From a virus (taxonomy: Duplodnaviria; Caudoviricetes), in IMG/VR virus record IMGVR_UViG_3300025430_001249, positions 1 to 57,014 of that record: a stretch of DNA of 57,014 bases; one strand, 5' to 3'. Under the pieces are notes generated by a model that ran no database searches, was not told the origin of the DNA, and saw nothing but the letters and a program-made list of their open reading frames with translations. Numbering within the stretch: position 1 is the stretch's first letter; the number at the start of each line of letters is the position of its first letter. Shown here piece after piece: positions 6,514-43,253 of the stretch. The translations under genes were made by a program, and so were the position numbers.

Positions 6514-7968
6514 TTAATTTTCTAAAGCGGTTTCTAATTCTTTTAGTTTGTCCGGACGTGTAAGATGAGCAAGTGCTTTAGCTTCGATCTGCCGTACGCG
6601 CTCGCGAGTTACATTAAATCGCTTGCCAATTTCTTCTAGAGTATGCTCGTCCATAGTACCAATGCCAAATCGCATGCGGATAACACGTTCTTCTCGACTG
6701 TTAAGGGTACCTAAGGCATTTGAAATTATACGTGTGATATCTTCATCATTTATCTTTTCAATTGCATCTACAACATTTTCATCTTCAATATACGAACCAA
6801 GGCTATTATCCTCATCATCTCCAACAGGTGTTTGGAGGCTTACTGGATCTCTAGCCACTTGCATCATACGTCTAACCTTTTGAGGATCCATTTCAAGAAT
6901 ATTACCAATTTCTCCCTCTGTTGGTTCATGACCATGAGCAGCAACGTGATCTTTAATTACTTTTGTTATTTTTTTAATTGCATCAAGTACATGGCTTGGC
7001 ACCCGAATAGTCTTGCTGTGTTCAGTTGTTGCTTTGATAATAGCTTGACGAATCCACCAAGTAGCATAGGTACTAAATCGATAACCTAGACGCCATTTGA
7101 ACTTTTCAACTGCTTTAATAAGACCAATGTTACCTTCTTGTACTAGATCTAGCAAAGTAGTTGGATTATTTTGGTTATATCGTTTGGCCACACTAACTAC
7201 TAGACGCAAGTTACTAGTAACCATCTTTTGGATAGATTCTTCTTTTATTTTAGCTTGGGAACGCAGATCCCTAACTGTGTTGCGTAGATCTCGCAAACTC
7301 ATACCAGTTTGTTGACTAATATCGATAATTTTTTGATTGAGTTGTTCTATCTTCGCACCATGTTTTTCTCTAAGATTTAGATAACTTGGTACATCATTAG
7401 TATAAATCCAATCAAGCCCATCTGTAGAAAGATATTTCGCCATCCAATCTTCGCGCTTAATACCGCAACTTTCTGCTAGACGGAGCACTTCACCATCAAT
7501 ACTAACCACTTGCTTGTTAAATGCAATAACCTGTTCCATAAGATGAGACAAGCTTGCTGGATTAAGAGACAGTTCGTTAAATTGCTCAACTAATTGCGCT
7601 CGAACAACCTCATTAGTACGATCTTGTTGATAACTTTCACACAATAATTTGATTTTTGTGAGTTGAGATAAGAATGCAGGGCCTACATCGTCGTTAGAAT
7701 CAAGCTCAATGTCAAATACTTCAACAGCGTCTTGACCATTTATCATAGCAGCGTCAATCCAAGACGTAACTGTTGATATAGTAAGCGGAATTCCCAGCAA
7801 GCGATCAGTAATAGCCTGTTTAGCTGTTTCAATGGTTTGACTGATTTCAATTTCTTGTTTGTGAGTTAGCAATGGAGCTTTACCAACATCTCGCAAATAC
7901 AGCTTTATTGGGTCTTGATAACCTTCATTTTGTTTAGTTGTACGAGATTTAGGTGTAGTTAATGTCAC
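6514..7968 (-). CDS. rpoD: RNA polymerase primary-type sigma70 factor lacking region 1.1
   Basis: region 1.2 [15 protein letters not shown], long non-conserved region, [51 protein letters not shown]; GTG start with GGAG SD. Confidence 0.95.
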
Positions 7969-32490: not shown

Positions 32491-34161
32491 ATGAATTTAC
32501 AACACACAGTTGAGTTGCCAAACAGCTTGGTAACTCTACCATTAGATGCAGTATCAATAGTGCCAATGGATCCCAATATACAAATTAATGTTACTATTAT
32601 GATACGTCGTCCATTATGGAATGGCATATCAATGATAGATTACGCAGATAAAATTGCTAACGGTCTAATAAAAAACATCTTGTCATATGAAGAGTTTGCG
32701 CAAAATTTTAGCGCTTGTATAGAAGACGTTAACCATGTAATTAAATTCGCACAACAATCAGGATTATCAGTTGTAGAATCTCTGCCTGCATCTGCAACAG
32801 TTAAGGTTACAGGTACGGTTTCAAACTTCAACACGGCATTTGGAATTTCGTTGGTTATTGTAACGATGTCCAATTATAGATATATAACCTACGACGGAAT
32901 AATTACAATACCTGTAGAATTAGACGGGGTAATTGAATACATATTAGGATTACACAATCCAATATTACTCAAACATCTTGCTATACCAACTGCTGGTATT
33001 CCTGCAGGAGATACTGCATTAACACCAGTTCAGGTATCAACTGCATATAATTTCCCTACATGCGATGGGTATGGGCAATGTATAGGTATAATAGAATACG
33101 GAGGAGGTTATACTACGCAGAACTTATCTTCAACATTTTCACAGCTTGGTTATTCAAACCCAACAACAATTGATATATTAGTCGACGGCGGTACTAACAA
33201 CCCTAATGATATAAACGGCGCACCGGAAGTCATGCTAGATATATATTGTTGCGGCGGTGTTGTACCTAAGGCCAAGCTGGCAATATACTTTGGATATGGC
33301 GGTGGCGATAGCAGCCCCGTTCCGGGGCCCAATTGGTATGATCCTATAAATGCAGCTATACACGATGTGGTTAACGCCCCAAGTGTATTATCAATAAGTT
33401 GGGGTGCCGGCGAACTTTCTTATTGGACCCCAACTACAATTTTAGCTACTGATGCTATTCTAGCACAAGCAGTTACAATGGGAATTACAATTTGTGTATC
33501 GTCTGGTGATTCTGGATCCACATGGGGAGGAATACAAGAAGAAGTATTATATCCTGCATCAAGTAGGTACGTATTAGCCGTAGGTGGTACTACATTACAG
33601 TTAAGCGGTAATGTTAGGTCAAATGAGGTAGCATGGAATCCTTCGGGTGGCGGTATTAGCGCATACGAAACAATACAATCCTGGCAAATAGGTCTCACAG
33701 CTAGATCGTACCCATCAGGGACCATATCTTCGTTAACTGTTAGAGGAGTTCCAGATATTGCTGCAAATTCAGACCCAAATACAGGTTATCGATTCTATTG
33801 GGGGACAACTAATACTCTTAGTCAATATGGTGGTACTAGTGCTGCTGCACCATTAATTGCGGGAATGATTGCTCGTATAAATCAATTAACTGGCAAAAGA
33901 ATTGGATTTGCCAACACCCTATTCTATGCCCACCCAACTGCATTTTATGATATTACATCAGGTGAAAATGCAGTTTCATTGTCGACCGGTTATAGTGCTA
34001 CCGCTGGGTGGGATGCAATTACAGGATTAGGAGTACCAGATGGCTCAAACATCTTTAGATTAGTAAATGTAGGTACGACATTTCCTCAAAATAACTTTGG
34101 ATTTAGGCCAACATCTGGTATTGTTTACCCTCGTATAACTCTAGGTGTAAGACTTGATTAA
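32491..34161 (+). CDS. sedolisin/kumamolisin-like S53 serine-carboxyl peptidase with pro-domain
   Basis: pro-domain; E-x3-D (EVMLD), SISWG, SSGDSG, RGVPD, GGTSAAAP, GWDAITGLG Ca site. Confidence 0.92.
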   Translation: MNLQHTVELPNSLVTLPLDAVSIVPMDPNIQINVTIMIRRPLWNGISMIDYADKIANGLIKNILSYEEFAQNFSACIEDVNHVIKFAQQSGLSVVESLPASATVKVTGTVSNFNTAFGISLVIVTMSNYRYITYDGIITIPVELDGVIEYILGLHNPILLKHLAIPTAGIPAGDTALTPVQVSTAYNFPTCDGYGQCIGIIEYGGGYTTQNLSSTFSQLGYSNPTTIDILVDGGTNNPNDINGAPEVMLDIYCCGGVVPKAKLAIYFGYGGGDSSPVPGPNWYDPINAAIHDVVNAPSVLSISWGAGELSYWTPTTILATDAILAQAVTMGITICVSSGDSGSTWGGIQEEVLYPASSRYVLAVGGTTLQLSGNVRSNEVAWNPSGGGISAYETIQSWQIGLTARSYPSGTISSLTVRGVPDIAANSDPNTGYRFYWGTTNTLSQYGGTSAAAPLIAGMIARINQLTGKRIGFANTLFYAHPTAFYDITSGENAVSLSTGYSATAGWDAITGLGVPDGSNIFRLVNVGTTFPQNNFGFRPTSGIVYPRITLGVRLD

Positions 34162-34187
34162 TTTAACAAACTTTCGGTAAATAATAC

Positions 34188-34757
34188 ATGTTTAATCATC
34201 CGTTTATTTGTCTCAGTACAAAAGATGATTTAGGAGATCAAGATCTCCTAAATTGGTTTAAATCTGTAACAGAATTGGGTCCACCCGGTATATTAGGCGA
34301 AGTACAGTTACGACCTGAAGATAAACCTCAAAGGTTTTATCATAGAAAACTTAACGGTATGAATCGATATTGTGCAGCTTTATGTAGAGATTTAGAATCA
34401 GATGAAGCCAATAAAATTGCGCAAGGTGCGAATTCTGCCATACCAACTGGTGACTTTGAAATATCTTGGAGTCAAAATCCACAGAATCAAAATCAATACG
34501 AATCTGTTTCTAAAGATTTAATAAAAGCCATAGCACTTGAAGCTGCAAAACGTAATCATACAACATGGTTAAATCAAAAAATTAATGAAGGTTGGAGATT
34601 TGGTCAAAATTTCCATTCTCGTAATAAAGTTAGTCCAATGTGTAGAGAGTGGGATTCGCTTAGTGAGCGATATAAACGTGCAGAATATCATAGGATGATA
34701 TCATTGTTAGAAGTTTTAGACGAAATGAAATTGAGTCTAGCAGCCAAAAGACCTTAA
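34188..34757 (+). CDS. RyR-domain-containing protein
   Basis: A...H..W...K..EGWRFG......K.SP....WDSLSE. Confidence 0.7.
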   Translation: MFNHPFICLSTKDDLGDQDLLNWFKSVTELGPPGILGEVQLRPEDKPQRFYHRKLNGMNRYCAALCRDLESDEANKIAQGANSAIPTGDFEISWSQNPQNQNQYESVSKDLIKAIALEAAKRNHTTWLNQKINEGWRFGQNFHSRNKVSPMCREWDSLSERYKRAEYHRMISLLEVLDEMKLSLAAKRP

Positions 34758-35695: not shown

Positions 35696-36241
35696 ATGGG
35701 TGATATAACACAACAAGATCTTAAGTTAGCTATACAAGATTTGCATAAATCTGCAGAAACAACACAACTAGCACAAGATTTGATATCCGGTAATATAGAT
35801 CCTCATATCTATAGAAACCTTTGCTATCAAATGTGGTTGATTACAGATGCTATAGAATCGCAACTTAAACTAAATCTAGATATTTGTCGACGACATCAAT
35901 TTGTACAAGATATCGCAGAATGTCCTGCCGGACCAGTGGCGGCGTGTCCGTCTACCATAAAATATGTAGACTATATCAAAGATATGTATTTTACACACGG
36001 AAGTGGTCAATTAAAAGGAGCAATTTATTGTTTTTATCTCGGCTGGTTATATGGCGGGCAGATGATTGCAAAAAAGCTCAATTTGCCAAAGCATCATTTA
36101 AAATTTGATAATGTAAAAGATTCTATAGAATATGTAAGAAATACAATTTTAGTGCATCTAATTGATCGAGATATTAATGAAGCACGTAAAGCATTCAAAT
36201 ATACCATTAAAATATATCAGGAACTTTATGAACTGCATTGA
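35696..36241 (+). CDS. hemO: heme oxygenase
   Basis: proximal His in DLHKSAE; distal helix YLGWLYGGQMI; EARKAF. Confidence 0.85.
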   Translation: MGDITQQDLKLAIQDLHKSAETTQLAQDLISGNIDPHIYRNLCYQMWLITDAIESQLKLNLDICRRHQFVQDIAECPAGPVAACPSTIKYVDYIKDMYFTHGSGQLKGAIYCFYLGWLYGGQMIAKKLNLPKHHLKFDNVKDSIEYVRNTILVHLIDRDINEARKAFKYTIKIYQELYELH

Positions 36242-36842
36242 TAAAGTTGATTCAATTGCTAGGCGGTTAAACTTTATTTTACAGCAGCAACACGGTGCAT
36301 ACCTATTACCAACACACGAATATGGTTGGGAAAATTTTCAATATCGTAGTCCTAAATTTAGGCTAGGTCATGTGCAGATTTTCAAACAAGAAAAATTTGC
36401 TGCTATTCATTGTTGCGTTTTTCCGCACGGTGTAGATCCTGCACCAATATATGGATTTGATGTAGTAGCTGGTGAGAACAAAGTTACTGGTGTTTTCATG
36501 GATTTAAGTCCAACTGTAAAAGAAACCAATCCATTTACCAACATAAATGTAGGTAGAATTAGAGATCGACCAGAATGGGGAGATATATTTTCACCTCATT
36601 GGCTAGCATGCCGGCCATCTCCAGAGGAACTAGATATCGTAGGTATCGAAGCTGTAAAAGTTTTGATACAATATCTTCCAACATTAGGCGATTTTGGAGA
36701 TCAATCTGCTATAATTGCAGGTCAAAATCGCTATTGCTTAAAGCAACGACAGAACCAGCACACCCGTAAAGCACTTACTAATATACTGGGTGCAAATGGC
36801 GCAGAAGAATACATGTCTACAGTGTTGTTCCCTACAATTTGA
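36228..36842 (+). CDS. ferredoxin-dependent bilin reductase (PcyA/PcyX type)
   Basis: HCCVFP..PIYGFDVV...DLSP, R.RPEWGDIFS, QNRYC.KQRQN.HT; overlaps the heme oxygenase stop; start at ATG 36228. Confidence 0.85.
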   Translation: MNCIDKVDSIARRLNFILQQQHGAYLLPTHEYGWENFQYRSPKFRLGHVQIFKQEKFAAIHCCVFPHGVDPAPIYGFDVVAGENKVTGVFMDLSPTVKETNPFTNINVGRIRDRPEWGDIFSPHWLACRPSPEELDIVGIEAVKVLIQYLPTLGDFGDQSAIIAGQNRYCLKQRQNQHTRKALTNILGANGAEEYMSTVLFPTI

Positions 36843-37723: not shown

Positions 37724-38623
37724 ATGTTTGATGCAACACGTCAATACGAACTTACTATCCGTCCTTTAGGTCGTAATACAGCAGATGAGTATTATCACAA
37801 CGGATCAATTTGGATAGAAGGTCGTGAAGGTAATAATTACACAATTGATTTAACCAATAGATCTCATCAACGTGCGTTGTTTATTCTTAGTGTTGATGGT
37901 TTAGATGTACTAGAAGGCAAACCAGCAGGGTTGAACAGCCAAGGCTATATTATCCCTGCAGGTCAAACTATCTCTGTGCCTGGTTGGAAAGTAAATGATC
38001 AGCAAGCAGCTGAATTTTATTTCAGCCGTAGCAGAGAAAGCTATGTTAATAGTATTGGTGGAACCACTACCAATACTGGCGTAATTGGGGTTATGATATT
38101 TTCTGAATACAAACAATATTACGAAGTATACGATATGTCTACCCCAGGGACCCGAGGCATTTCTACCAACCAAATACCAACTTCTAATATACAGAACATT
38201 GGTGATCTCAATGTTTCTGAAAGTTCAGTTGATAATTCATGGATAGCTAATGGTATTTCTAAGAATCAGACATTAAATGCTGCAATAGTGCAAGCTGCTG
38301 CCGCCAACATTCCTATGAATTCTGCATCTGCTGAAGTAAACACCAGTGGAAGTATCATAAGCCAAAATTATCTTAGCCAAGAAGTTGGCACTGGTTTTGG
38401 TAAAGCTACAGATTGGCAAACTGTATCTACTCAATTTAGGCGCAATAATCCAACTCAACCAGACACAATTATGGCCATTTACTACAATACCGCAAGGAAT
38501 TTGGAAAAAATGGGCATTAGGCTCCGTAGAAAACGCGATGTTCAGTATAAGGCTGATCCTTTTCCCGCATATTCATCAACAACAACCGTAGGGTGTCCAA
38601 CACCTTACAATTGGAAGCCCTAA
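37724..38623 (+). CDS. hypothetical beta-rich protein, partner of the vWA gene
   Basis: IEGREG..Y.I.L.N....R..FILSVDG.DV..GK...GY; AGGAG SD. Confidence 0.7.
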   Translation: MFDATRQYELTIRPLGRNTADEYYHNGSIWIEGREGNNYTIDLTNRSHQRALFILSVDGLDVLEGKPAGLNSQGYIIPAGQTISVPGWKVNDQQAAEFYFSRSRESYVNSIGGTTTNTGVIGVMIFSEYKQYYEVYDMSTPGTRGISTNQIPTSNIQNIGDLNVSESSVDNSWIANGISKNQTLNAAIVQAAAANIPMNSASAEVNTSGSIISQNYLSQEVGTGFGKATDWQTVSTQFRRNNPTQPDTIMAIYYNTARNLEKMGIRLRRKRDVQYKADPFPAYSSTTTVGCPTPYNWKP

Positions 38624-38632
38624 TATAAAACA

Positions 38633-38667
38633 GGCAGCGGGATAAACCCGCTGCCATTTCCTTTATT
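38633..38667 (+). terminator. intrinsic terminator
   Basis: GGCAGCGGG-ataaa-CCCGCTGCC followed by ATTTCCTTTATT. Confidence 0.8.
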
Positions 38668-38723
38668 GCTATCCCCATAACAAGCACTGCATCATTGGCT
38701 CTACATACAAGATGATATAACAT

Positions 38724-39175
38724 CGCAGTAAATGGTATCTGCGTAGGGAAGGGGTGGTATTCCACCAGGAACCTGCTAAAATGAGTGTTTCATCCACTCG
38801 ACCGAGAAGCATCGTCTGTGACCGTGTGGTATAAAATCTCCAGACCGAGCTCGGAATAATATAACCAAGTGCGGCAATAGGTTATTTAAATTATCGCCTT
38901 AGGTGAGGCCTAAGACTACAAATGGATCGCTCTATCTACCATTGATAACGATCAAGAATATACAGGGTTAATCAGTCCTCCCAGTATATTTCCTCCGCTG
39001 CTGAACAACGTTCAAGATGTACATGTAATGCTGGTACCGGGCAACCGCCGGCGACTGTAAAAGGTCAAGCATGAAAACTGGTCTATGAAAACTGCCTATA
39101 TGCAAAAATTTCATGAGAAACATCCTTCCTCGTATAGCGGGGGAGATATGGTCTATTCCCCCAACCAACTGCATA
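38724..39175 (+). ncRNA. candidate large structured non-coding RNA
   Basis: no credible ORF; GC-richer than other intergenic DNA; more than 10 hairpins plus long-range pairings; extended -10 TGATATAAC at 38713-38721. Confidence 0.6.
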
Positions 39176-39243
39176 TATAGAAGACAAAATATCCTTTAGT
39201 TACTATAATTAATCCATAACCACTTAGTTAAAAAGGAAATTAA

Positions 39244-40458
39244 ATGCCCCTCACAAAAAATATTGCTGTAATAGGAGCAGGTATTGCAGGTGTAACCATA
39301 GCGTATCAATTGGCACGCTTAGGGTATAACGTAACTGTTTTTGACAAAGAGCGATACCCCGCAATGAAAACCAGTTATGCAAATGGGTCACAGTTGTCTG
39401 TCTGTAATAGCCAAACCTGGAACACATGGAGTACCATAAGCAAGGGCTTAACTTGGCTCTTCAAACAAGATGCCCCTTTATACATAAGCCCCAAAATTGA
39501 TTTAGAAAAAATCAAATGGCTCTCTAAATTTATATGTACAACAGCATATAACCGTCATGTGCAAAATACCACTGCTACGATCAAGCTTGCTTTAGAAAGT
39601 CGCAAAGAAACACTAGACATTGCATTTAAAGAAGATATAAAATTTGATCATGTAAACAAAGGTATACTTCATATCTACACAGATAGAAAAAGTTTTAACG
39701 ATGCATTTAAAGCAGAATCACTGATGACCAGCAACGGTTGTGAATGGGATATATTAGATCCTCAAGCATGCATTATGAAAGAACCTGCATTATCTTCCAA
39801 TCCTAATCTTATAGGTGGCGTGCTTACCTCTAGTGATAGTACTGGTGATATGAATATGTTTATTAATGGATTGGTAAACGTATGCATAGCAAAATACAAC
39901 GTGGCCTTTCGTTTTGAACAAAACATAACAGATATAAATGTAAGCAACCACGGAGTTGTTATAAACGACAGCAGTTTTGACCATGTGGTAATAGCAGCAG
40001 GTGTTGACAGTAATAGATGGGGATGTAAATTTGGCGATAATCTTGGGATTTATCCTGTAAAAGGATATAGTATAACAGTTGATCTACTTGATACTCGTAG
40101 TCAGTCAACTGCTCCGTGGACTAGTTTACTTGATGAGGGTACAAAAATTGTATGTTCGAGATTAGGAGCAACTAGATTGCGTGTAGCTGGTACTGCAGAG
40201 TTATCAGGCTATAATCTAGACATAAAACAAAATCGAATAAAACCTCTCCTTGATTGGACACAGCATTGGTTTCCCAATGTTGATACTAGATCTTACCGTC
40301 CTTGGACAGGCTTACGTCCTATGACTCCCAATATGATGCCAATTGTTGGACGAGGTAAGCATCGGCGTGTGTGGTATCATACAGGTCACGGTCATTTAGG
40401 CTGGACGTTGTCCGCTGCTACAGCTAAAAACCTAGCTCTACAAATATATCTAACGTGA
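39244..40458 (+). CDS. dadA: D-amino acid dehydrogenase (FAD-dependent)
   Basis: GAGIAG, TSYANGSQLS, IYPVKGYSIT, RLRVAGTAE, WTGLRPMTP, GHGHLGWT. Confidence 0.9.
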   Translation: MPLTKNIAVIGAGIAGVTIAYQLARLGYNVTVFDKERYPAMKTSYANGSQLSVCNSQTWNTWSTISKGLTWLFKQDAPLYISPKIDLEKIKWLSKFICTTAYNRHVQNTTATIKLALESRKETLDIAFKEDIKFDHVNKGILHIYTDRKSFNDAFKAESLMTSNGCEWDILDPQACIMKEPALSSNPNLIGGVLTSSDSTGDMNMFINGLVNVCIAKYNVAFRFEQNITDINVSNHGVVINDSSFDHVVIAAGVDSNRWGCKFGDNLGIYPVKGYSITVDLLDTRSQSTAPWTSLLDEGTKIVCSRLGATRLRVAGTAELSGYNLDIKQNRIKPLLDWTQHWFPNVDTRSYRPWTGLRPMTPNMMPIVGRGKHRRVWYHTGHGHLGWTLSAATAKNLALQIYLT

Positions 40459-40514: not shown

Positions 40515-41354
40515 ATGAAATCTGCTGCTGATGTTGTTTTGGCGTTGGAAGTTACTAGTGGTCGTTTGGATAAAGAACGGATTGTGCAAGATGCATGGGA
40601 CCTAAAAATCACAGAATTCTTCGAAGGGGCTCTGATGGCATATGATGCATTGCGCACATATGGCGTTAAAAAAGTACCTCTTATTGAAGGTGACGATTAT
40701 TCAAATTTTGTTTCAACATTTGACTGGGATAGATTCAAAGCTATTGCGCACAAACTTGAAAAACGCGAATTGACGGGTAATCAAGCACGAGACGTTCTTA
40801 GAGCCGCCGCCGATGCTGCCGCAGTTAAAGATTGGAACTGGTTTTATCGCAGGGTACTGCTTAAGGATCTTAAATGTGGTATCACAGAAACCACAATTAA
40901 TAAAATTTTGGAAAAGAACGGTGATAGTGCTAAAAAATACATTATTCCTGTTTTTTCATGTCAACTTGCTAAGAATGGTGATGATCATCCTAAAAAAATG
41001 ACCGGAGCAAAACTACTTGATATGAAACTAGACGGATGTTTGTCGGCACAATGGGAAATTGAATTTGATGATGGGCAAAAAGTATCCATCGCTGAAGTTG
41101 TTGATAATAAAATATCTGGTAAAATTAAATCCTTTAATACCTTAACTGGTAAAATTGAGTTTAATACTATAACAAACTGGGCCAAAAATGCCAAGGATAT
41201 TAATGATGACACAATTAAATGGTATCGCATTACATTAGAAAATGGTAAACTGTTGCCGCCATTAACTGGTAATCATTTGGTATGGTTACCAAATATTAAA
41301 TGTTGGCGAAGGGTTGATTTACTAAAAGTTGGTGATAAATTGCTGGAAAAATAA
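40515..41354 (+). CDS. lig: ATP-dependent DNA ligase N-terminal part fused to split intein N-half
   Basis: R.LTGN, KDLKCG, CQLA, motif I KLDG, then intein block A C-LSAQW (from 41037) and block B LTGNH, ending in a stop. Confidence 0.9.
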   Translation: MKSAADVVLALEVTSGRLDKERIVQDAWDLKITEFFEGALMAYDALRTYGVKKVPLIEGDDYSNFVSTFDWDRFKAIAHKLEKRELTGNQARDVLRAAADAAAVKDWNWFYRRVLLKDLKCGITETTINKILEKNGDSAKKYIIPVFSCQLAKNGDDHPKKMTGAKLLDMKLDGCLSAQWEIEFDDGQKVSIAEVVDNKISGKIKSFNTLTGKIEFNTITNWAKNAKDINDDTIKWYRITLENGKLLPPLTGNHLVWLPNIKCWRRVDLLKVGDKLLEK

Positions 41355-41357
41355 AGT

Positions 41358-41416
41358 AATACACCATCAAGTTTATAGTCTGTGATAAATACGGTACAAT
41401 AAACTTGGCAGGTATT
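41358..41416 (+). promoter_or_regulatory. hairpin with late promoter in its loop, occluding the endonuclease translation start
   Basis: CAAGTTTAT (41368-76)/ATAAACTTG (41399-407) stem, outer AATAC/GTATT pairing, TAAATA at 41386-41391. Confidence 0.6.
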
Positions 41417-41419
41417 TCT

Positions 41420-42304
41420 ATGTCGTATTGTAAATTTTGTAAAAAAACAAATATTAGTCCTAGTCATTATTGTAGGACTATGAAAAGTCAGGCACGATTA
41501 GAGCCTTTTGACAGCCTGTTAAGACAAATGTTGATAGTTGAAAAAATGCCAATCTATAGAATGGAACAAACAAGCGAAGAATGGGCTGGAATTAAAATTA
41601 GTGGAGCACATTTACGAGATTGGTGCAGAATAAATGGAATTACCACTATGAGTATTAAAGAATCTGCAAACTTATTATCAACACGAGAACAATATAAATC
41701 AACTGTAGAACAAAGATACGGAGTTGATAATGTTTCTAAATCAACGTCAATAAAAGAAAAAAAGGTATCAACCAATCAAGATAGGCATGGGGTTGACAAT
41801 CCTTTTCAAAGGGCAGAAATAAAAGACAAAATAACTACAACTCTTTTGGAAAAATATGGTGTTTCTAACGCTCGGTACCTACCTCGTTCTACAGACAAGC
41901 ATATGTTAACAAAACCGCATCAAAAGTTGTCAAACTGGTTACTTGATCAAGGTTTTGTACACGAAAACGAAATTCCCAATTTATTTCCTAAAAAGCGTAG
42001 TAAAAATAACAGAATATATTCCCCGATAGTTGATATATGGATGCAACAATATAGAATTGTGATAGAAATATTTGGTACCTATTGGCATGCTGACCCGAGA
42101 GTATATTATCCAAGTGATATCATTCAATTACATATTGGTCCTACTACTGCCCAAGAAATTTGGGAAAATGATAAGTTGCGACAGGAGCATATAGAATCCT
42201 TTAATGTGACAGTTATCACGATATGGGAAATTGACATTAAAAAAAGCTTTGACAAAGTTAAAGAATTAATACACAATACCGTCAACCTAACCAACTCGTA
42301 TTGA
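41420..42304 (+). mobile_element. free-standing Vsr-like/PD-(D/E)XK homing endonuclease between the intein halves
   Basis: YGV.N repeats, then VDIW....IVIEIFGTYWH...D..R......VITIWE.D. Confidence 0.8.
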
Positions 42305-42314
42305 GGAAAATATT

Positions 42315-43253
42315 ATGACGTTTGTTACAATTAAGGCGATCGAAGAAATTACTGAGCAGTTTGATCGTTATGATTTAGAAGTTGAAAATGTTAGTAATTT
42401 TTTTGCTAATAATGTTCTAGTTCATAATTGTCGAATTATAAGTATTCTTGATAAAACAAAGAATACAGTTACTCAATATAGCCGAGACGGCCGCCTTAAT
42501 GAAAATTTTCCGCAAATTGCTGCCAATCTTGCTAAACTATTACCAATAATTAAAACCAGTATGGTGTTTGACGGGGAAATGGTAAGCCGTAACTTCCAAG
42601 CATTGATGAAACAGCTTAATCGCAAGGATGACGTTGATACAACTGATGCGAAACTAGCACTGTTTGATTGTTTGCCATTGGAAGATTTTCTGCAAGGCGA
42701 ATGTACGCTTACTCAAACACAACGACACAGTGCTTTGGTTGAATTTCAGCCATTGCTTAGTCAAATATCTAACGGAACTGTTTATGTTGTACCTAAACTA
42801 TGGGTCAACTTAGACACGACCGAGGGACAAAAAACATTTGGAGAATTTAATCGAGATACTGTGGCTGCTGGCTATGAAGGTATTATGATTAAGGATCCAG
42901 AGTCAACTTATAAAACAAAACGCACAGATGCTTGGCTTAAGATTAAACCTTTTATCACTGTAGATCTAGAAGTCATAGCGTTTGAACCTGGTAAAACTGA
43001 AAGTCGATTTGCAAATACACTTGGCGGATTGGTTTGTCAGGGTACAGACCAAGGCAAGTTAATTCAGGTAACGGTTGGCAGTGGTTTTAGTGAAGAATTG
43101 CGTGATCAAATTTGGACCAATAGAGATACGGTAAAAGGTAGAATTGTTGAGATCAAAAGTGATGGTGTAACGCAAAATCAAGATAGTACATACAGCTTGC
43201 GGTTTCCAGTATTTATGCAGTTTCGAGGTTGGGAGCCAGGTGAGAAGATTTAA
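42315..43253 (+). CDS. lig: split intein C-half (38 aa) fused to DNA ligase C-terminal part
   Basis: YDLEV...NFFANNVLVHN|C (blocks F/G, ending 42428), then SRDGR, FDGE, LFD, EGIMIKD, WLKIKP, VGSGFS, SLRFPVF. Confidence 0.92.
   Translation: MTFVTIKAIEEITEQFDRYDLEVENVSNFFANNVLVHNCRIISILDKTKNTVTQYSRDGRLNENFPQIAANLAKLLPIIKTSMVFDGEMVSRNFQALMKQLNRKDDVDTTDAKLALFDCLPLEDFLQGECTLTQTQRHSALVEFQPLLSQISNGTVYVVPKLWVNLDTTEGQKTFGEFNRDTVAAGYEGIMIKDPESTYKTKRTDAWLKIKPFITVDLEVIAFEPGKTESRFANTLGGLVCQGTDQGKLIQVTVGSGFSEELRDQIWTNRDTVKGRIVEIKSDGVTQNQDSTYSLRFPVFMQFRGWEPGEKI

What the first reader, a model, noticed from the sequence alone, without database searches (positions are those of the whole stretch)
38695..39180. 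Unannotated ~450-nt highly structured RNA with its own candidate promoter, downstream of a vWA gene pair
Seen: this is the longest gene-free stretch in the window, insulated by a strong terminator (38633-55) and preceded by TTGGCT...TGATATAAC. It is packed with stems: CGCAG/CTGCG, GGTGG/CCACC, GAGTG/CACTC, a long CCGAG..TCTG/CAGA..CTCGG arm, ATAACC/GGTTAT, CTTAGG/CCTAAG, GATCG/CGATC, AATATAC/GTATATT, TGAAC/GTTCA and CATGAAA/TTTCATG. An ATGCT/AGCAT junction encloses GGTACCGGGCAACCGCCGG. Possible closing pairs are GCAGT..TGGT (38725-36) with ACCAACTGC (39164-72) and GGGAAGGGGTG with CATCCTTCCT. It lacks the tmRNA, RNase P and group II intron signatures I know. Inference: a large phage ncRNA in the size class of ROOL/GOLLD-type RNAs, possibly a new class. 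It might act as an RNP with the adjacent vWA/partner proteins, by loose analogy to the vWA domain of Ro60-Y RNA complexes; that part is speculative.
Basis: partly seen in the sequence, partly recalled or inferred. Interest (0 to 1): 0.85.

Follow-up and report, generated by a model that had tools for sequence, protein, structure and literature searches.

The report
New large pseudoknotted giant-phage RNA
The gene-free stretch encodes a roughly 470-nucleotide, intricately folded non-coding RNA that belongs to a previously uncatalogued family found so far only in uncultured freshwater giant phages; its function is unknown.

Summary
Window ~38702-39175 (+) is a real structured-RNA gene. It cannot code for protein: every frame holds 7-12 stops of all three kinds. 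The single sequence folds no better than shuffles (z -1.13). Homologues settle the matter. Across 40 distinct sequences (<97% identical), 88.6% of cells pair in an 84-pair model against 72.0% in shuffles (0 of 500 reach it), and 65 of 84 pairs carry compensatory changes. The fold has about 19 helices, two covarying pseudoknots and a long-range closing helix. No Rfam 15 family matches. It was not found in 50,697 cultured-phage records or in the bacterial species genomes scanned. Giant-phage genomes carry 1-3 diverged, dispersed copies. A sigma-70-like promoter sits at a fixed distance upstream in 25 of 40. Neighbouring genes vary, so it is not a leader and not tied to the vWA pair. Its pseudoknotted core and an identical 17-base loop recur in two other phage RNA types. 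One of these begins with the Rfam motif Polynucleobacter-1. Function is unknown; I infer a trans-acting RNP scaffold or ribozyme.

The parts
38633..38655 (+). Intrinsic-terminator-like hairpin ending the upstream vWA/299-aa gene pair. It scores on both strands.
   Evidence: 9 pairs, 8 G-C, loop of 5, T-rich tail. The weak Rfam hits (E 0.14-9.7, minus strand, 38560-38727) all centre on this hairpin.
38666..38695 (+). Candidate sigma-70-type promoter of the RNA: -35 TTGCTA 38666-38671, 18-nt spacer, -10 CATCAT 38690-38695. Inferred start near 38702.
   Evidence: A site scoring >=8 of 12, with its -10 ending 18-32 nt before helix H1, is present in 25 of 40 family members. Control 15-nt windows further upstream hold 0-6 of 40. 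The window's own site scores 8 of 12 and fell below the threshold of the tool scan.
38702..39175 (+). The RNA gene, about 470 nt. The 5' end is inferred from the promoter; the 3' end is inferred from the end of conservation and from the next gene's promoter.
   Evidence: Conservation limits in A2 and A3. No ORF. G-U cells outnumber A-C cells in the model 319 to 100, which points to the + strand.
38724..38743 (+). H1 hairpin, CGCAG 38724-38728 / CTGCG 38739-38743.
   Evidence: helix 1: 100% of cells paired, 4 of 5 pairs with changes on both sides.
38745..38774 (+). H2: outer stem 38745-38747 / 38772-38774 and inner stem GGTGG 38753-38757 / CCACC 38762-38766. They enclose an invariant all-purine 5x5 internal loop, GAAGG 38748-38752 / AGGAA 38767-38771.
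   Evidence: helices 2 and 3: 100% and 99.5% paired, 2 of 3 and 4 of 5 pairs covary. The loop columns are invariant in A3, in part because the search pattern required them.
38782..38800 (+). H3 hairpin, TGAGTG / CACTCG.
   Evidence: helix 4: 95.8% paired, 5 of 6 pairs covary.
38802..38854 (+). H4 (CCGAG 38802-38806 / CTCGG 38850-38854) enclosing H5 (TCTG 38815-38818 / CAGA 38841-38844).
   Evidence: helices 5 and 6: 100% and 98.8% paired. The A-U to G-C switch at columns 114/168 occurs in 7 of 40.
38861..38885 (+). H6, a variable hairpin (ATAACC / GGTTAT). It is missing in three members: L128, L212, L216.
   Evidence: per-sequence folds; own-versus-cross complementarity 4.92 against 3.04; 0 of 5000 permutations reach it.
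38898..38914 (+). H7 hairpin (CTTAGGT / GCCTAAG) with a conserved loop.
   Evidence: helix 7: 100% paired, 2 of 4 pairs covary.
38925..38953 (+). H8 (GATCG / CGATC) with inner stem 38933-38936 / 38944-38947 and the conserved CTCT segment.
   Evidence: helices 8 and 9: 99.0% and 99.4% paired, 4 of 5 and 3 of 4 pairs covary.
38960..38988 (+). H9, a long variable hairpin. Its loop, ATCAGT 38971-38976, forms pseudoknot PK1 with ACTGGT 39077-39082.
   Evidence: the whole PK1 helix is replaced by other sequence in the L078, L132 and L200 types. helix 11: 7 of 8 pairs covary; own 6.62 against cross 4.35; 0 of 5000 permutations.
38995..39014 (+). Conserved CCGCTG 38995-39000, of which GCTG 38997-39000 pairs with the H11 loop CAAC 39042-39045 (pseudoknot PK2), followed by the H10 hairpin TGAAC 39002-39006 / GTTCA 39010-39014.
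   Evidence: column 333 with column 397 is paired in 40 of 40 (G-C 34, A-U 3, U-A 3). helix 12: 94.8% paired, 5 of 5 pairs covary.
39016..39124 (+). Long-range helix GATGT 39016-39020 / ACATC 39120-39124. It closes the 3' domain.
   Evidence: Found. helix 13: 90.4% paired, 5 of 5 pairs covary.
39022..39073 (+). Three-way junction. Outer stem CATGT 39022-39026 / GCATG 39069-39073. H11 GCTGGT 39030-39035 / GCCGGC 39047-39052 with the near-invariant 11-nt loop 39036-39046. H11b 39053-39056 / 39063-39066.
   Evidence: helix 14: 94.6% paired, 4 of 6 pairs covary; outer stem own 4.56 against cross 3.43 and H11b 4.42 against 2.14; 0 of 5000 permutations for each.
39085..39114 (+). Hairpin ATGAAA 39085-39090 / TTTCAT 39109-39114 with an apical stem at 39093-39095 / 39102-39104. 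The apical stem is specific to one subfamily.
   Evidence: own 3.9 against cross 3.23; 1 of 5000 permutations. helix 15: the apical stem is paired in only 49% of cells family-wide.
39125..39175 (+). H12 hairpin (CTTCCTCG 39125-39132 / CGGGGGAG 39138-39145) and the conserved 3' tail, including AACCAACTGC 39163-39172.
   Evidence: helix 16: 72.2% paired, 7 of 8 pairs covary. The tail's contact with the H1 loop is only marginal.
39181..39209 (+). Promoter-like site of the next gene (AAGACA, 17 nt, TATAAT), ahead of the DAO-type ORF 39244-40458.
   Evidence: 10 of 12; a site scoring >=9 of 12 lies within 90 nt after the RNA in 20 of 40 members; 25 sites fall in the first 90 nt against 7 in the next 210 nt.

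Best explanation
The stretch is a stand-alone gene for a structured non-coding RNA of about 470 nt, read from the + strand. It belongs to a family absent from Rfam 15 and found so far only in uncultured virus and metagenome contigs. The virus records checked for copy number are 170-453 kb. One complete 453-kb genome and four incomplete records of 170-329 kb carry 1-3 diverged, dispersed copies.

Shown:
- About 19 helices.
- Two pseudoknots: the H9 loop with a segment 3' of a three-way junction, and CCGCUN with the invariant H11 loop.
- A long-range helix that closes the 3' domain.

Inferred from comparison:
- The RNA has its own sigma-70-type promoter starting near 38702.
- It is a transcription unit separate from the DAO/ligase genes downstream.

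Inferred from size, the double-pseudoknot core, the invariant unpaired nucleotides and the absence of any fixed neighbouring gene: it acts in trans as a folded RNA. The most likely role is the scaffold of an RNP with a phage or host protein (about 0.45 of the trans-acting case). A ribozyme (about 0.2) or an RNA-only assembly of the GOLLD/ROOL type (about 0.15) comes next.

The same core architecture, with an identical 17-base hairpin loop, occurs in two other phage RNA types (X and Y). Type Y begins with the Rfam motif Polynucleobacter-1. The element is therefore probably one branch of a wider phage RNA superfamily.
For: Non-coding:
- 7-12 stops per frame, all three stop types in every frame.

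Family:
- nhmmer confirms 42 viral loci and 49 of 67 metagenome loci.
- There are 47 distinct full-length sequences, falling into 39 clusters at 97% identity, plus the window.

Structure:
- RNAalifold on 21 sequences gives 76 pairs, 54 with compensatory change.
- My 84-pair model on 40 sequences: 88.6% of cells paired against 72.0% in shuffles, covariation score 0.514 against 0.209, 0 of 500 shuffles reaching either, slid controls 0.09-0.13.
- PK1, the junction stem, H6 and H11b each pass an own-versus-cross permutation test with 0 of 5000.
- PK2 column pair 333:397 is paired in 40 of 40 with three pair types.

Strand:
- 319 G-U cells against 100 A-C cells.

Own transcription unit:
- A promoter at fixed distance in 25 of 40, against 0-6 of 40 in control windows.
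- A promoter for the next gene within 90 nt after the RNA in 20 of 40.
- A terminator upstream in the window.
- The window encodes a sigma-70-family factor.

Not a leader:
- Downstream genes differ: DAO, ATP DNA ligase, methylase, virion protein, unknowns.
- In five lineages (L078, L122, L145, L126 type, L128) the next ORF is on the opposite strand.

Copy number:
- 3 copies in a complete 452.8-kb genome, 2 in three 223-329-kb records, 1 in a 170-kb record and 1 in the window.

Not catalogued:
- Rfam gives no match.

Shared core:
-.
Against: - No expression data. No RNA run was listed, so transcript ends and even transcription itself are inferred.
- The single-sequence folding z-score is only -1.13.
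- No conserved intrinsic terminator follows the RNA, so read-through into the next gene is possible.
- 15 of 40 members lack a scorable promoter at the expected place. The window's own site is weak (8 of 12).
- The trans-acting mechanism has no direct support: no partner protein, ligand or reaction was identified.
- Most homologues were retrieved with patterns that demand three motifs, so part of the invariance is by construction. L161 and L162, found only by the second pattern, do deviate in one motif.
- The link to types X and Y rests on the 17-mer and on shared architecture. A covariance model of the W region without the 17-mer found 0 of 100 X/Y loci at the expected place.
Confidence: 0.7

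Rival explanations
1. A cis-acting 5' leader, such as a riboswitch or protein-binding operator, that controls the downstream gene. That gene is DAO-type oxidoreductase in the window and ATP-dependent DNA ligase in close relatives.
For: - In the window lineage the RNA lies 40-90 nt upstream of a co-directional ORF.
- No terminator follows it.
- The related Polynucleobacter-1 motif is listed as a likely cis-regulator in one table row of Weinberg 2010 (passage seen).
- Double-pseudoknot cores are typical of ligand-binding RNAs (general knowledge).
Against: - Downstream genes are unrelated across the family.
- In five lineages the next ORF is convergent.
- 20 of 40 members have a separate promoter between the RNA and the next gene, including the window at 39181-39209.
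- About 470 nt is far larger than any known leader of this kind.
Confidence: 0.1
2. The RNA of a mobile or selfish element: a degenerate or novel self-splicing intron, or an RNA that travels with homing-endonuclease genes.
For: - There are several copies per genome.
- Endonuclease-like ORFs recur beside members. A SegE-type GIY-YIG ORF sits directly upstream of types X and Y. A relative of the window's DUF7487 ORF lies 30 nt from the RNA in L078.
- In L062 a 216-aa ORF is inserted next to a partial duplicate of the RNA's 5' end.
- The window holds a NUMOD3 ORF and an intein-interrupted ligase.
Against: - Copies within one genome are strongly diverged, not near-identical.
- No interrupted host gene or conserved flanks exist: the upstream ORF ends with a stop and a terminator.
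- There is no group I or group II match even at E <= 10.
- The RNA has its own promoter at a fixed distance.
- Endonuclease genes insert next to any highly conserved target, so the adjacency is explained without mobility of the RNA.
Confidence: 0.07
3. A replication-origin transcript: a structured primer RNA, in the manner of plasmid primer RNAs, marking one to three origins in a very large genome.
For: - There are 1-3 dispersed copies per 170-453-kb genome.
- In the window lineage it lies among replication and repair genes: ligase, DNA polymerase, endonuclease.
- Types X and Y lie beside SbcCD-like genes.
Against: - Other members lie beside virion structural genes.
- No repeat arrays or AT-rich unwinding elements were noticed next to it.
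- The invariant loops and two pseudoknots go beyond what a primer needs.
- No test of GC skew was possible on the complete genomes.
Confidence: 0.06
4. Not a functional element: a decayed gene or a chance set of stems.
For: - The single-sequence z-score is -1.13; 16 of 100 shuffles fold as well.
- A 68-aa minus-strand ORF overlaps part of it.
Against: - 65 of 84 pairs carry compensatory changes; 0 of 500 shuffles reach the observed scores.
- Whole-helix swaps preserve a pseudoknot.
- The element is conserved across 40 distinct sequences with 55% mean column identity.
- One member (L163) has an insertion that is not a multiple of three in the 3' tail, which argues against a peptide there.
Confidence: 0.01

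Closest known systems
Polynucleobacter-1 RNA motif (Rfam RF01718; Weinberg et al. 2010, PMC2864571, of which only one table row was seen)
   Same: - It is found in freshwater/estuary sequence (table row).
- In 9 of the 20 loci scanned it lies about 100 nt upstream of the same 17-base hairpin loop that the window RNA carries.
- The RNA that continues from it (type Y) shows the same core as the window RNA. A hairpin loop pairs 3' of a three-way junction. A CCGYUG segment pairs with the invariant loop. An outer stem, the loop hairpin and a second hairpin complete the junction.
   Different: - The window RNA does not match the RF01718 model at all: nothing at E <= 10, whereas true members score 68-112 bits.
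- The shared core lies outside the Rfam model.
- The 5' and 3' domains differ.
- Type Y sits after a SegE-like GIY-YIG ORF in phages with T4-type baseplate and SbcCD-like genes. The window family lies in much larger phage genomes, in varied contexts and in several copies.
- A model of the window family's H7-H9 region does not detect type X or Y (0 of 100 loci).
GOLLD and ROOL RNAs (Kretsch et al., bioRxiv 10.1101/2024.12.08.627333; passages seen)
   Same: They are large, multi-pseudoknotted non-coding RNAs of unknown function, encoded by phages and prophages, with no known protein partner. They are of the same size class (hundreds of nucleotides).
   Different: - No sequence or structure match: no Rfam hit.
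- GOLLD and ROOL are described as often lying near tRNA islands. No tRNA is found in the window or in 50 family loci.
- Multimer formation is shown for them and untested here. A possible palindromic loop proved to be subfamily-specific.
Candidate structured RNAs from IMG/VR (Fremin et al. 2023, PMC10690425; abstract, passages and section 2.6 seen; supplements closed)
   Same: A catalogue of 10,006 candidates predicted from the same virus collection that holds this window. It could include this family.
   Different: The main text names no candidate of this size or context; my search of it found no mention of jumbo, ligase or heme oxygenase. The candidate lists are in supplements I could not read, so prior listing cannot be excluded.

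Membership tests
Any Rfam 15 family (4227 models) | Covariance-model score at or above the family's gathering score | tested here: not met
   0 matches in the whole window; at E <= 10 only four weak hits, all on the minus strand over the upstream terminator; 6 weak hits in 17 homologue loci, none overlapping the RNA.
Polynucleobacter-1 RNA (RF01718) | Match to the 141-position model (gathering score 37 bits) | tested here: not met
   No hit in the window. Positive controls score 68-112 bits in 9 loci.
Proposed superfamily sharing the pseudoknotted core (types W, X, Y; defined here) | A hairpin carrying the 17-base GGTACCGGNCAACCGCC segment inside a three-way junction | tested here: met
   Window 39033-39049. 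The junction stems covary. The same arrangement is seen in Y and X.
Proposed superfamily sharing the pseudoknotted core (types W, X, Y; defined here) | A pseudoknot between the loop of the preceding hairpin and the segment 3' of the junction, and pairing of CCGYUN with the invariant loop | tested here: met
   W: (column pair 333:397, 40 of 40). Y: columns 295-300/453-458 (covariation 1.06) and 319-323/370-374 (0.17). X: partial support only.
Proposed superfamily sharing the pseudoknotted core (types W, X, Y; defined here) | Statistically detectable homology outside the 17-mer | tested here: inconclusive
   Model R1 (W columns 206-335, without the 17-mer) found 0 of 100 X/Y loci at the expected place. 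Its single hit, E 0.61, lies elsewhere.
GOLLD / ROOL | Match to the family model | tested here: not met
   That both families are in Rfam is recalled, not checked.
GOLLD / ROOL | Often encoded near tRNA islands in phages and prophages | tested here: not met
   0 tRNA genes in the window and in 50 family loci. Phage origin is met.
GOLLD / ROOL | RNA-only multimeric assembly | not testable with these tools
   Needs native gels, SEC-MALS or cryo-EM.
Group I / group II intron | Intron model match, and insertion within a host gene with conserved exon flanks | tested here: not met
   No hit at E <= 10. The upstream ORF ends with a stop and a terminator. Flanks differ among homologues.
tmRNA / RNase P RNA | Detection by ARAGORN or by the Rfam models | tested here: not met
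Riboswitch or other 5' leader | A consistent co-directional downstream gene or gene class | tested here: not met
   (unrelated or convergent downstream ORFs). (intervening promoter in 20 of 40).
   The vWA ORF cluster is present in 4 of 31 loci examined. Y RNA models gave no hit.

The most novel reading that the evidence does not exclude
The window RNA and the X and Y types together form a widespread, phage-specific superfamily. It runs from T4-like phages to 450-kb giants in fresh water, and type Y includes what Rfam lists as Polynucleobacter-1. Its conserved double-pseudoknot, three-way-junction core would be a new functional RNA machine: a new large ribozyme class, or a self-assembling or protein-recruiting RNA. 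Giant phages would keep it in up to three specialised paralogues.
Probability: 0.25. Interest if true: 0.9.

Novelty: new variant of a known kind. Interest (0 to 1): 0.72.

Why it matters
Large RNAs with this many conserved helices and pseudoknots are rare. Most classes that have been characterised turned out to be ribozymes, RNP cores or, recently, RNA-only cages. This one has three notable properties:
- It is confined to uncultured giant phages.
- It is kept in up to three diverged copies per genome.
- It shares a pseudoknotted core with RNAs in unrelated, smaller phages.

That pattern points to a general phage function still unknown. The analysis also suggests that the 2010 Polynucleobacter-1 motif is only the 5' part of a longer RNA. 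The secondary-structure model with two pseudoknots gives direct targets for probing, cryo-EM, and cleavage or pull-down assays.

Tried and rejected
- **Coding under another genetic code.** Rejected: all three stop types occur in all six frames.
- **A short peptide at the SD-like GGGAGAUAUGG near the 3' end.** Rejected. The AUG is replaced in several lineages (L078, L149, L191, L128 types), and L163 has a one-base insertion there.
- **Heme oxygenase and bilin reductase as conserved upstream neighbours.** Similar ORF sizes in distant loci suggested this. Pfam gave no such domains for L136 and L149, and PHROGs calls the L136 ORF a virion protein. Rejected.
- **A symmetric kissing loop (palindromic tetranucleotide) in the apical hairpin at 39092-39105.** That hairpin exists only in the window's subfamily (49% of cells paired). 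Dropped.
- **H1-loop/3'-tail pairing.** Only marginal: own 3.86 against cross 3.63, and 247 of 5000 permutations reach it.
Not conserved.
- **Cultured phages.** blastn 'distant' against 50,697 records found nothing for the window RNA, L136, type Y or type X.
- **Bacterial genomes.** 17 pattern matches, none confirmed by nhmmer.
- **Expression.** No RNA holder was listed among 24 runs. I did not use read laying, because only DNA contigs were on offer.
- **Literature.** Six searches and look-ups in four papers found no description of this RNA. The supplements of Fremin et al. 2023 and Weinberg et al. 2010 were not readable and may bear on prior listing.
- **A full-length covariance model.** Only a 116-position sub-model (R1) was made.
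- **Statistical link from W to X and Y outside the 17-mer.** Not obtained.
Full report
**What is there.** The window is an IMG/VR virus record of 57,014 bases that CheckV rates 15% complete, so it is a fragment of a very large phage genome. It encodes a DNA polymerase, a sigma-70-family sigma factor and radical-SAM proteins. It also encodes a heme oxygenase, a bilin reductase and a vWA protein.

Between the stop of a 299-aa ORF (38623) and the start of a DAO-type oxidoreductase ORF (39244) lie 620 bases without a credible ORF. Every frame holds 7-12 stops, and each frame holds all three stop codons, so no alternative code opens one. GC is 41.8% against 35.8% for the window. A strong hairpin terminator sits at 38633-38655.

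**Single-sequence folding does not show structure.** The + strand folds at -127.8 kcal/mol with a z-score of -1.13, and 16 of 100 shuffles fold as well. The - strand gives z -1.41.

**Homologues.** The syntenic relative L002 was found through the 299-aa protein (72% identity). Three pattern scans of the viral collection followed, then one of metagenome contigs and one of bacterial species genomes. nhmmer profiles confirmed 42 viral loci and 49 of 67 metagenome loci. None of the 17 bacterial pattern matches was confirmed.

There are 47 distinct full-length sequences, falling into 39 clusters at 97% identity, plus the window. blastn in 'distant' mode finds nothing in 50,697 cultured-phage records, for the window copy or for the divergent L136 copy. 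The window sequence itself is held by DNA runs labelled freshwater or lake metagenome.

One caveat applies. Most members were collected with patterns that require three motifs, so the invariance of those motifs is partly by construction. L161 and L162, found only by the second pattern, deviate in one motif.

**Structure.** RNAalifold on 21 sequences predicted 76 pairs, 54 of them with compensatory changes. On 40 sequences (alignment A3, mean column identity 55%) I assembled a model of 84 pairs in 16 helices and tested it:

| Measure | Observed | Shuffled | Shuffles reaching it |
|---|---|---|---|
| Cells paired | 88.6% | 72.0% | 0 of 500 |
| Covariation score | 0.514 | 0.209 | 0 of 500 |

Sliding the partners by 1-3 columns gives scores of 0.09-0.13. 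Compensatory changes occur in 65 of 84 pairs.

Helices that the alignment does not keep in register were tested differently. I compared each sequence's own complementarity with cross-sequence complementarity:

| Element | Own | Cross | Permutations reaching own (of 5000) |
|---|---|---|---|
| Junction outer stem | 4.56 | 3.43 | 0 |
| H6 | 4.92 | 3.04 | 0 |
| H11b | 4.42 | 2.14 | 0 |
| Hairpin 39085-39114 | 3.9 | 3.23 | 1 |
| PK1 | 6.62 | 4.35 | 0 |

PK1 joins the H9 loop to a segment 3' of the three-way junction. In the L078, L132 and L200 types the whole helix is replaced by different complementary sequence.

PK2 joins the conserved CCGCUN to the CAAC of the 11-nt H11 loop. The variable N covaries perfectly with its partner: 40 of 40 paired, as G-C 34, A-U 3 and U-A 3.

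A long-range helix (39016-39020 / 39120-39124) closes the 3' domain. G-U cells outnumber A-C cells 319 to 100, which fits transcription of the + strand and an RNA-level rather than DNA-level structure.

Ten of the listed stems are conserved helices. ATGCT/AGCAT, CATGAAA/TTTCATG, GGGAAGGG/CCTTCC and the GCAGT..TGGT/ACCAACTGC closure pair in only 51.0%, 44.7%, 74.7% and 69.6% of cells, and do not covary. Better-supported alternatives exist for the first two. A loop-tail contact is only marginal.

**Transcription unit.** I aligned the upstream regions on helix H1. A sigma-70-like -35/-10 pair scoring >=8 of 12 has its -10 ending 18-32 nt before H1 in 25 of 40 members. Control windows further upstream hold 0-6 of 40.

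In the window this site is TTGCTA 38666-38671 and CATCAT 38690-38695, which implies a start near 38702.

Within 90 nt after the RNA, 20 of 40 members have another promoter-like site scoring >=9 of 12. There are 25 sites in the first 90 nt against 7 in the next 210 nt. The window's own is AAGACA/TATAAT at 39181-39209. No conserved terminator follows the RNA. Expression itself is untested.

**Context and copy number.** In close relatives the order is heme oxygenase, bilin reductase, (vWA pair), RNA, (DAO), ATP-dependent DNA ligase. Elsewhere the neighbours are a methylase, virion structural proteins, PhoH, an HD protein or unknowns. In five lineages the next ORF is convergent.

The vWA family is adjacent in 4 of 31 loci examined. 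No tRNA gene lies in the window or in 50 family loci.

A pattern scan and the covariance model R1 agree on copy number:
- 3 dispersed copies in a complete 452.8-kb genome;
- 2 copies, about 106 kb apart, in three records of 223-329 kb;
- 1 copy in a 170-kb record;
- 1 copy in the window.

Copies within one genome are strongly diverged.

**Relation to known RNAs.** No Rfam 15 family matches the window or 17 homologue loci.

I examined 121 occurrences. Among those with enough flanking sequence, I classed 36 as type X and 57 as type Y. Three belong to the window family.

Both types lie just after a SegE-like GIY-YIG ORF that follows SbcD/SbcC-like genes. One such locus also carries a T4-type baseplate gene.

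In 9 of 20 such loci scanned, the Rfam motif Polynucleobacter-1 (68-112 bits) lies about 100 nt upstream of the 17-mer. The 17-mer and what follows it are outside the Rfam model.

Alignments of 55 Y and 33 X sequences show the same core as the window family: a hairpin whose loop pairs 3' of a three-way junction, CCGUUG paired with the invariant loop, and a covarying outer stem and loop hairpin.

A covariance model of the window family's H7-H9 region, which lacks the 17-mer, detects none of 100 X/Y loci. The relationship therefore rests on the identical loop plus shared architecture. I call it probable, not proven. Types X and Y also have no match among cultured phages.

**Literature.** Weinberg et al. 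2010 gives Polynucleobacter-1 one table row: likely RNA, likely cis-regulatory, Burkholderiales and fresh water/estuary. It is the only paper in the library that holds the name.

Fremin et al. 2023 predicted 10,006 candidates from IMG/VR. The main text mentions nothing like this RNA, and the lists are in supplements I could not open.

Kretsch et al. describe GOLLD and ROOL as phage and prophage RNAs that are often near tRNA islands and form RNA-only cages. Four further searches found no description of this family, and neither did a look-up in a 2026 preprint on noncoding clusters.

**Interpretation.**
- Shown: a conserved, strand-specific, pseudoknotted RNA fold of about 470 nt in a phage-restricted family.
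- Inferred from comparison: its own promoter and separation from the downstream gene.
- Inferred from analogy only: action in trans as an RNP scaffold, ribozyme or RNA-only assembly.

The cis-leader, mobile-element and origin-primer readings remain possible at low probability. The vWA-RNP idea is not supported.

Noticed in passing
window 40515-43253: The ATP-dependent DNA ligase is split into three ORFs. The first is a 279-aa N-terminal part (phrog_114). The second is a 299-aa ORF in another frame (DUF7487). The third is a 312-aa part that begins with an intein-splicing C-terminal motif followed by the ligase adenylation and OB domains. Relatives L040, L131 and L134 have an uninterrupted ligase of 448-467 aa. 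This looks like a gene fractured by an intein with an inserted free-standing ORF. The comparison with published 'fractured genes' is recalled, not checked.
   Followed up: partly
L062 2749-2811, L125 4607-4669, L207 1447-1506, L219 2944-3006: A partial duplicate of the RNA's first ~63 positions lies upstream of the full copy. In L062 the two are separated by a 216-aa ORF of unknown function (phrog_15526). It may be the footprint of an insertion next to the RNA gene.
   Followed up: partly
L055 4049-4400, L053 4420-4760 and about 90 further loci: Two other phage RNA types (X and Y) share the 17-base loop and the pseudoknotted core. Type Y starts with Rfam's Polynucleobacter-1 motif, which therefore seems to be only the 5' part of an RNA of about 350 nt. 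Both types follow a SegE-like GIY-YIG ORF.
   Followed up: partly
L169 1862-1928 (-): A sub-threshold match to the cyanobacterial sRNA family NsiR1 (34.3 bits, gathering 39, E 0.004) lies about 1.2 kb from a family member. It is a weak hint at a cyanobacterial host.
   Followed up: no
window 6514-7968 (-): The phage encodes a sigma-70-family sigma factor (phrog_351, E 1.9e-86). This fits the sigma-70-like promoters seen before and after the RNA.
   Followed up: no
window 35696-36842: Heme oxygenase and ferredoxin-dependent bilin reductase genes lie side by side. They are auxiliary pigment-metabolism genes that recur upstream of the RNA in the close relatives L131, L134, L062 and L125.
   Followed up: partly
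window 32491-34757: A sedolisin-type peptidase (pro-kumamolisin activation domain plus S8 domain) is followed by a small protein with a RyR domain. This is unusual cargo for a phage.
   Followed up: no
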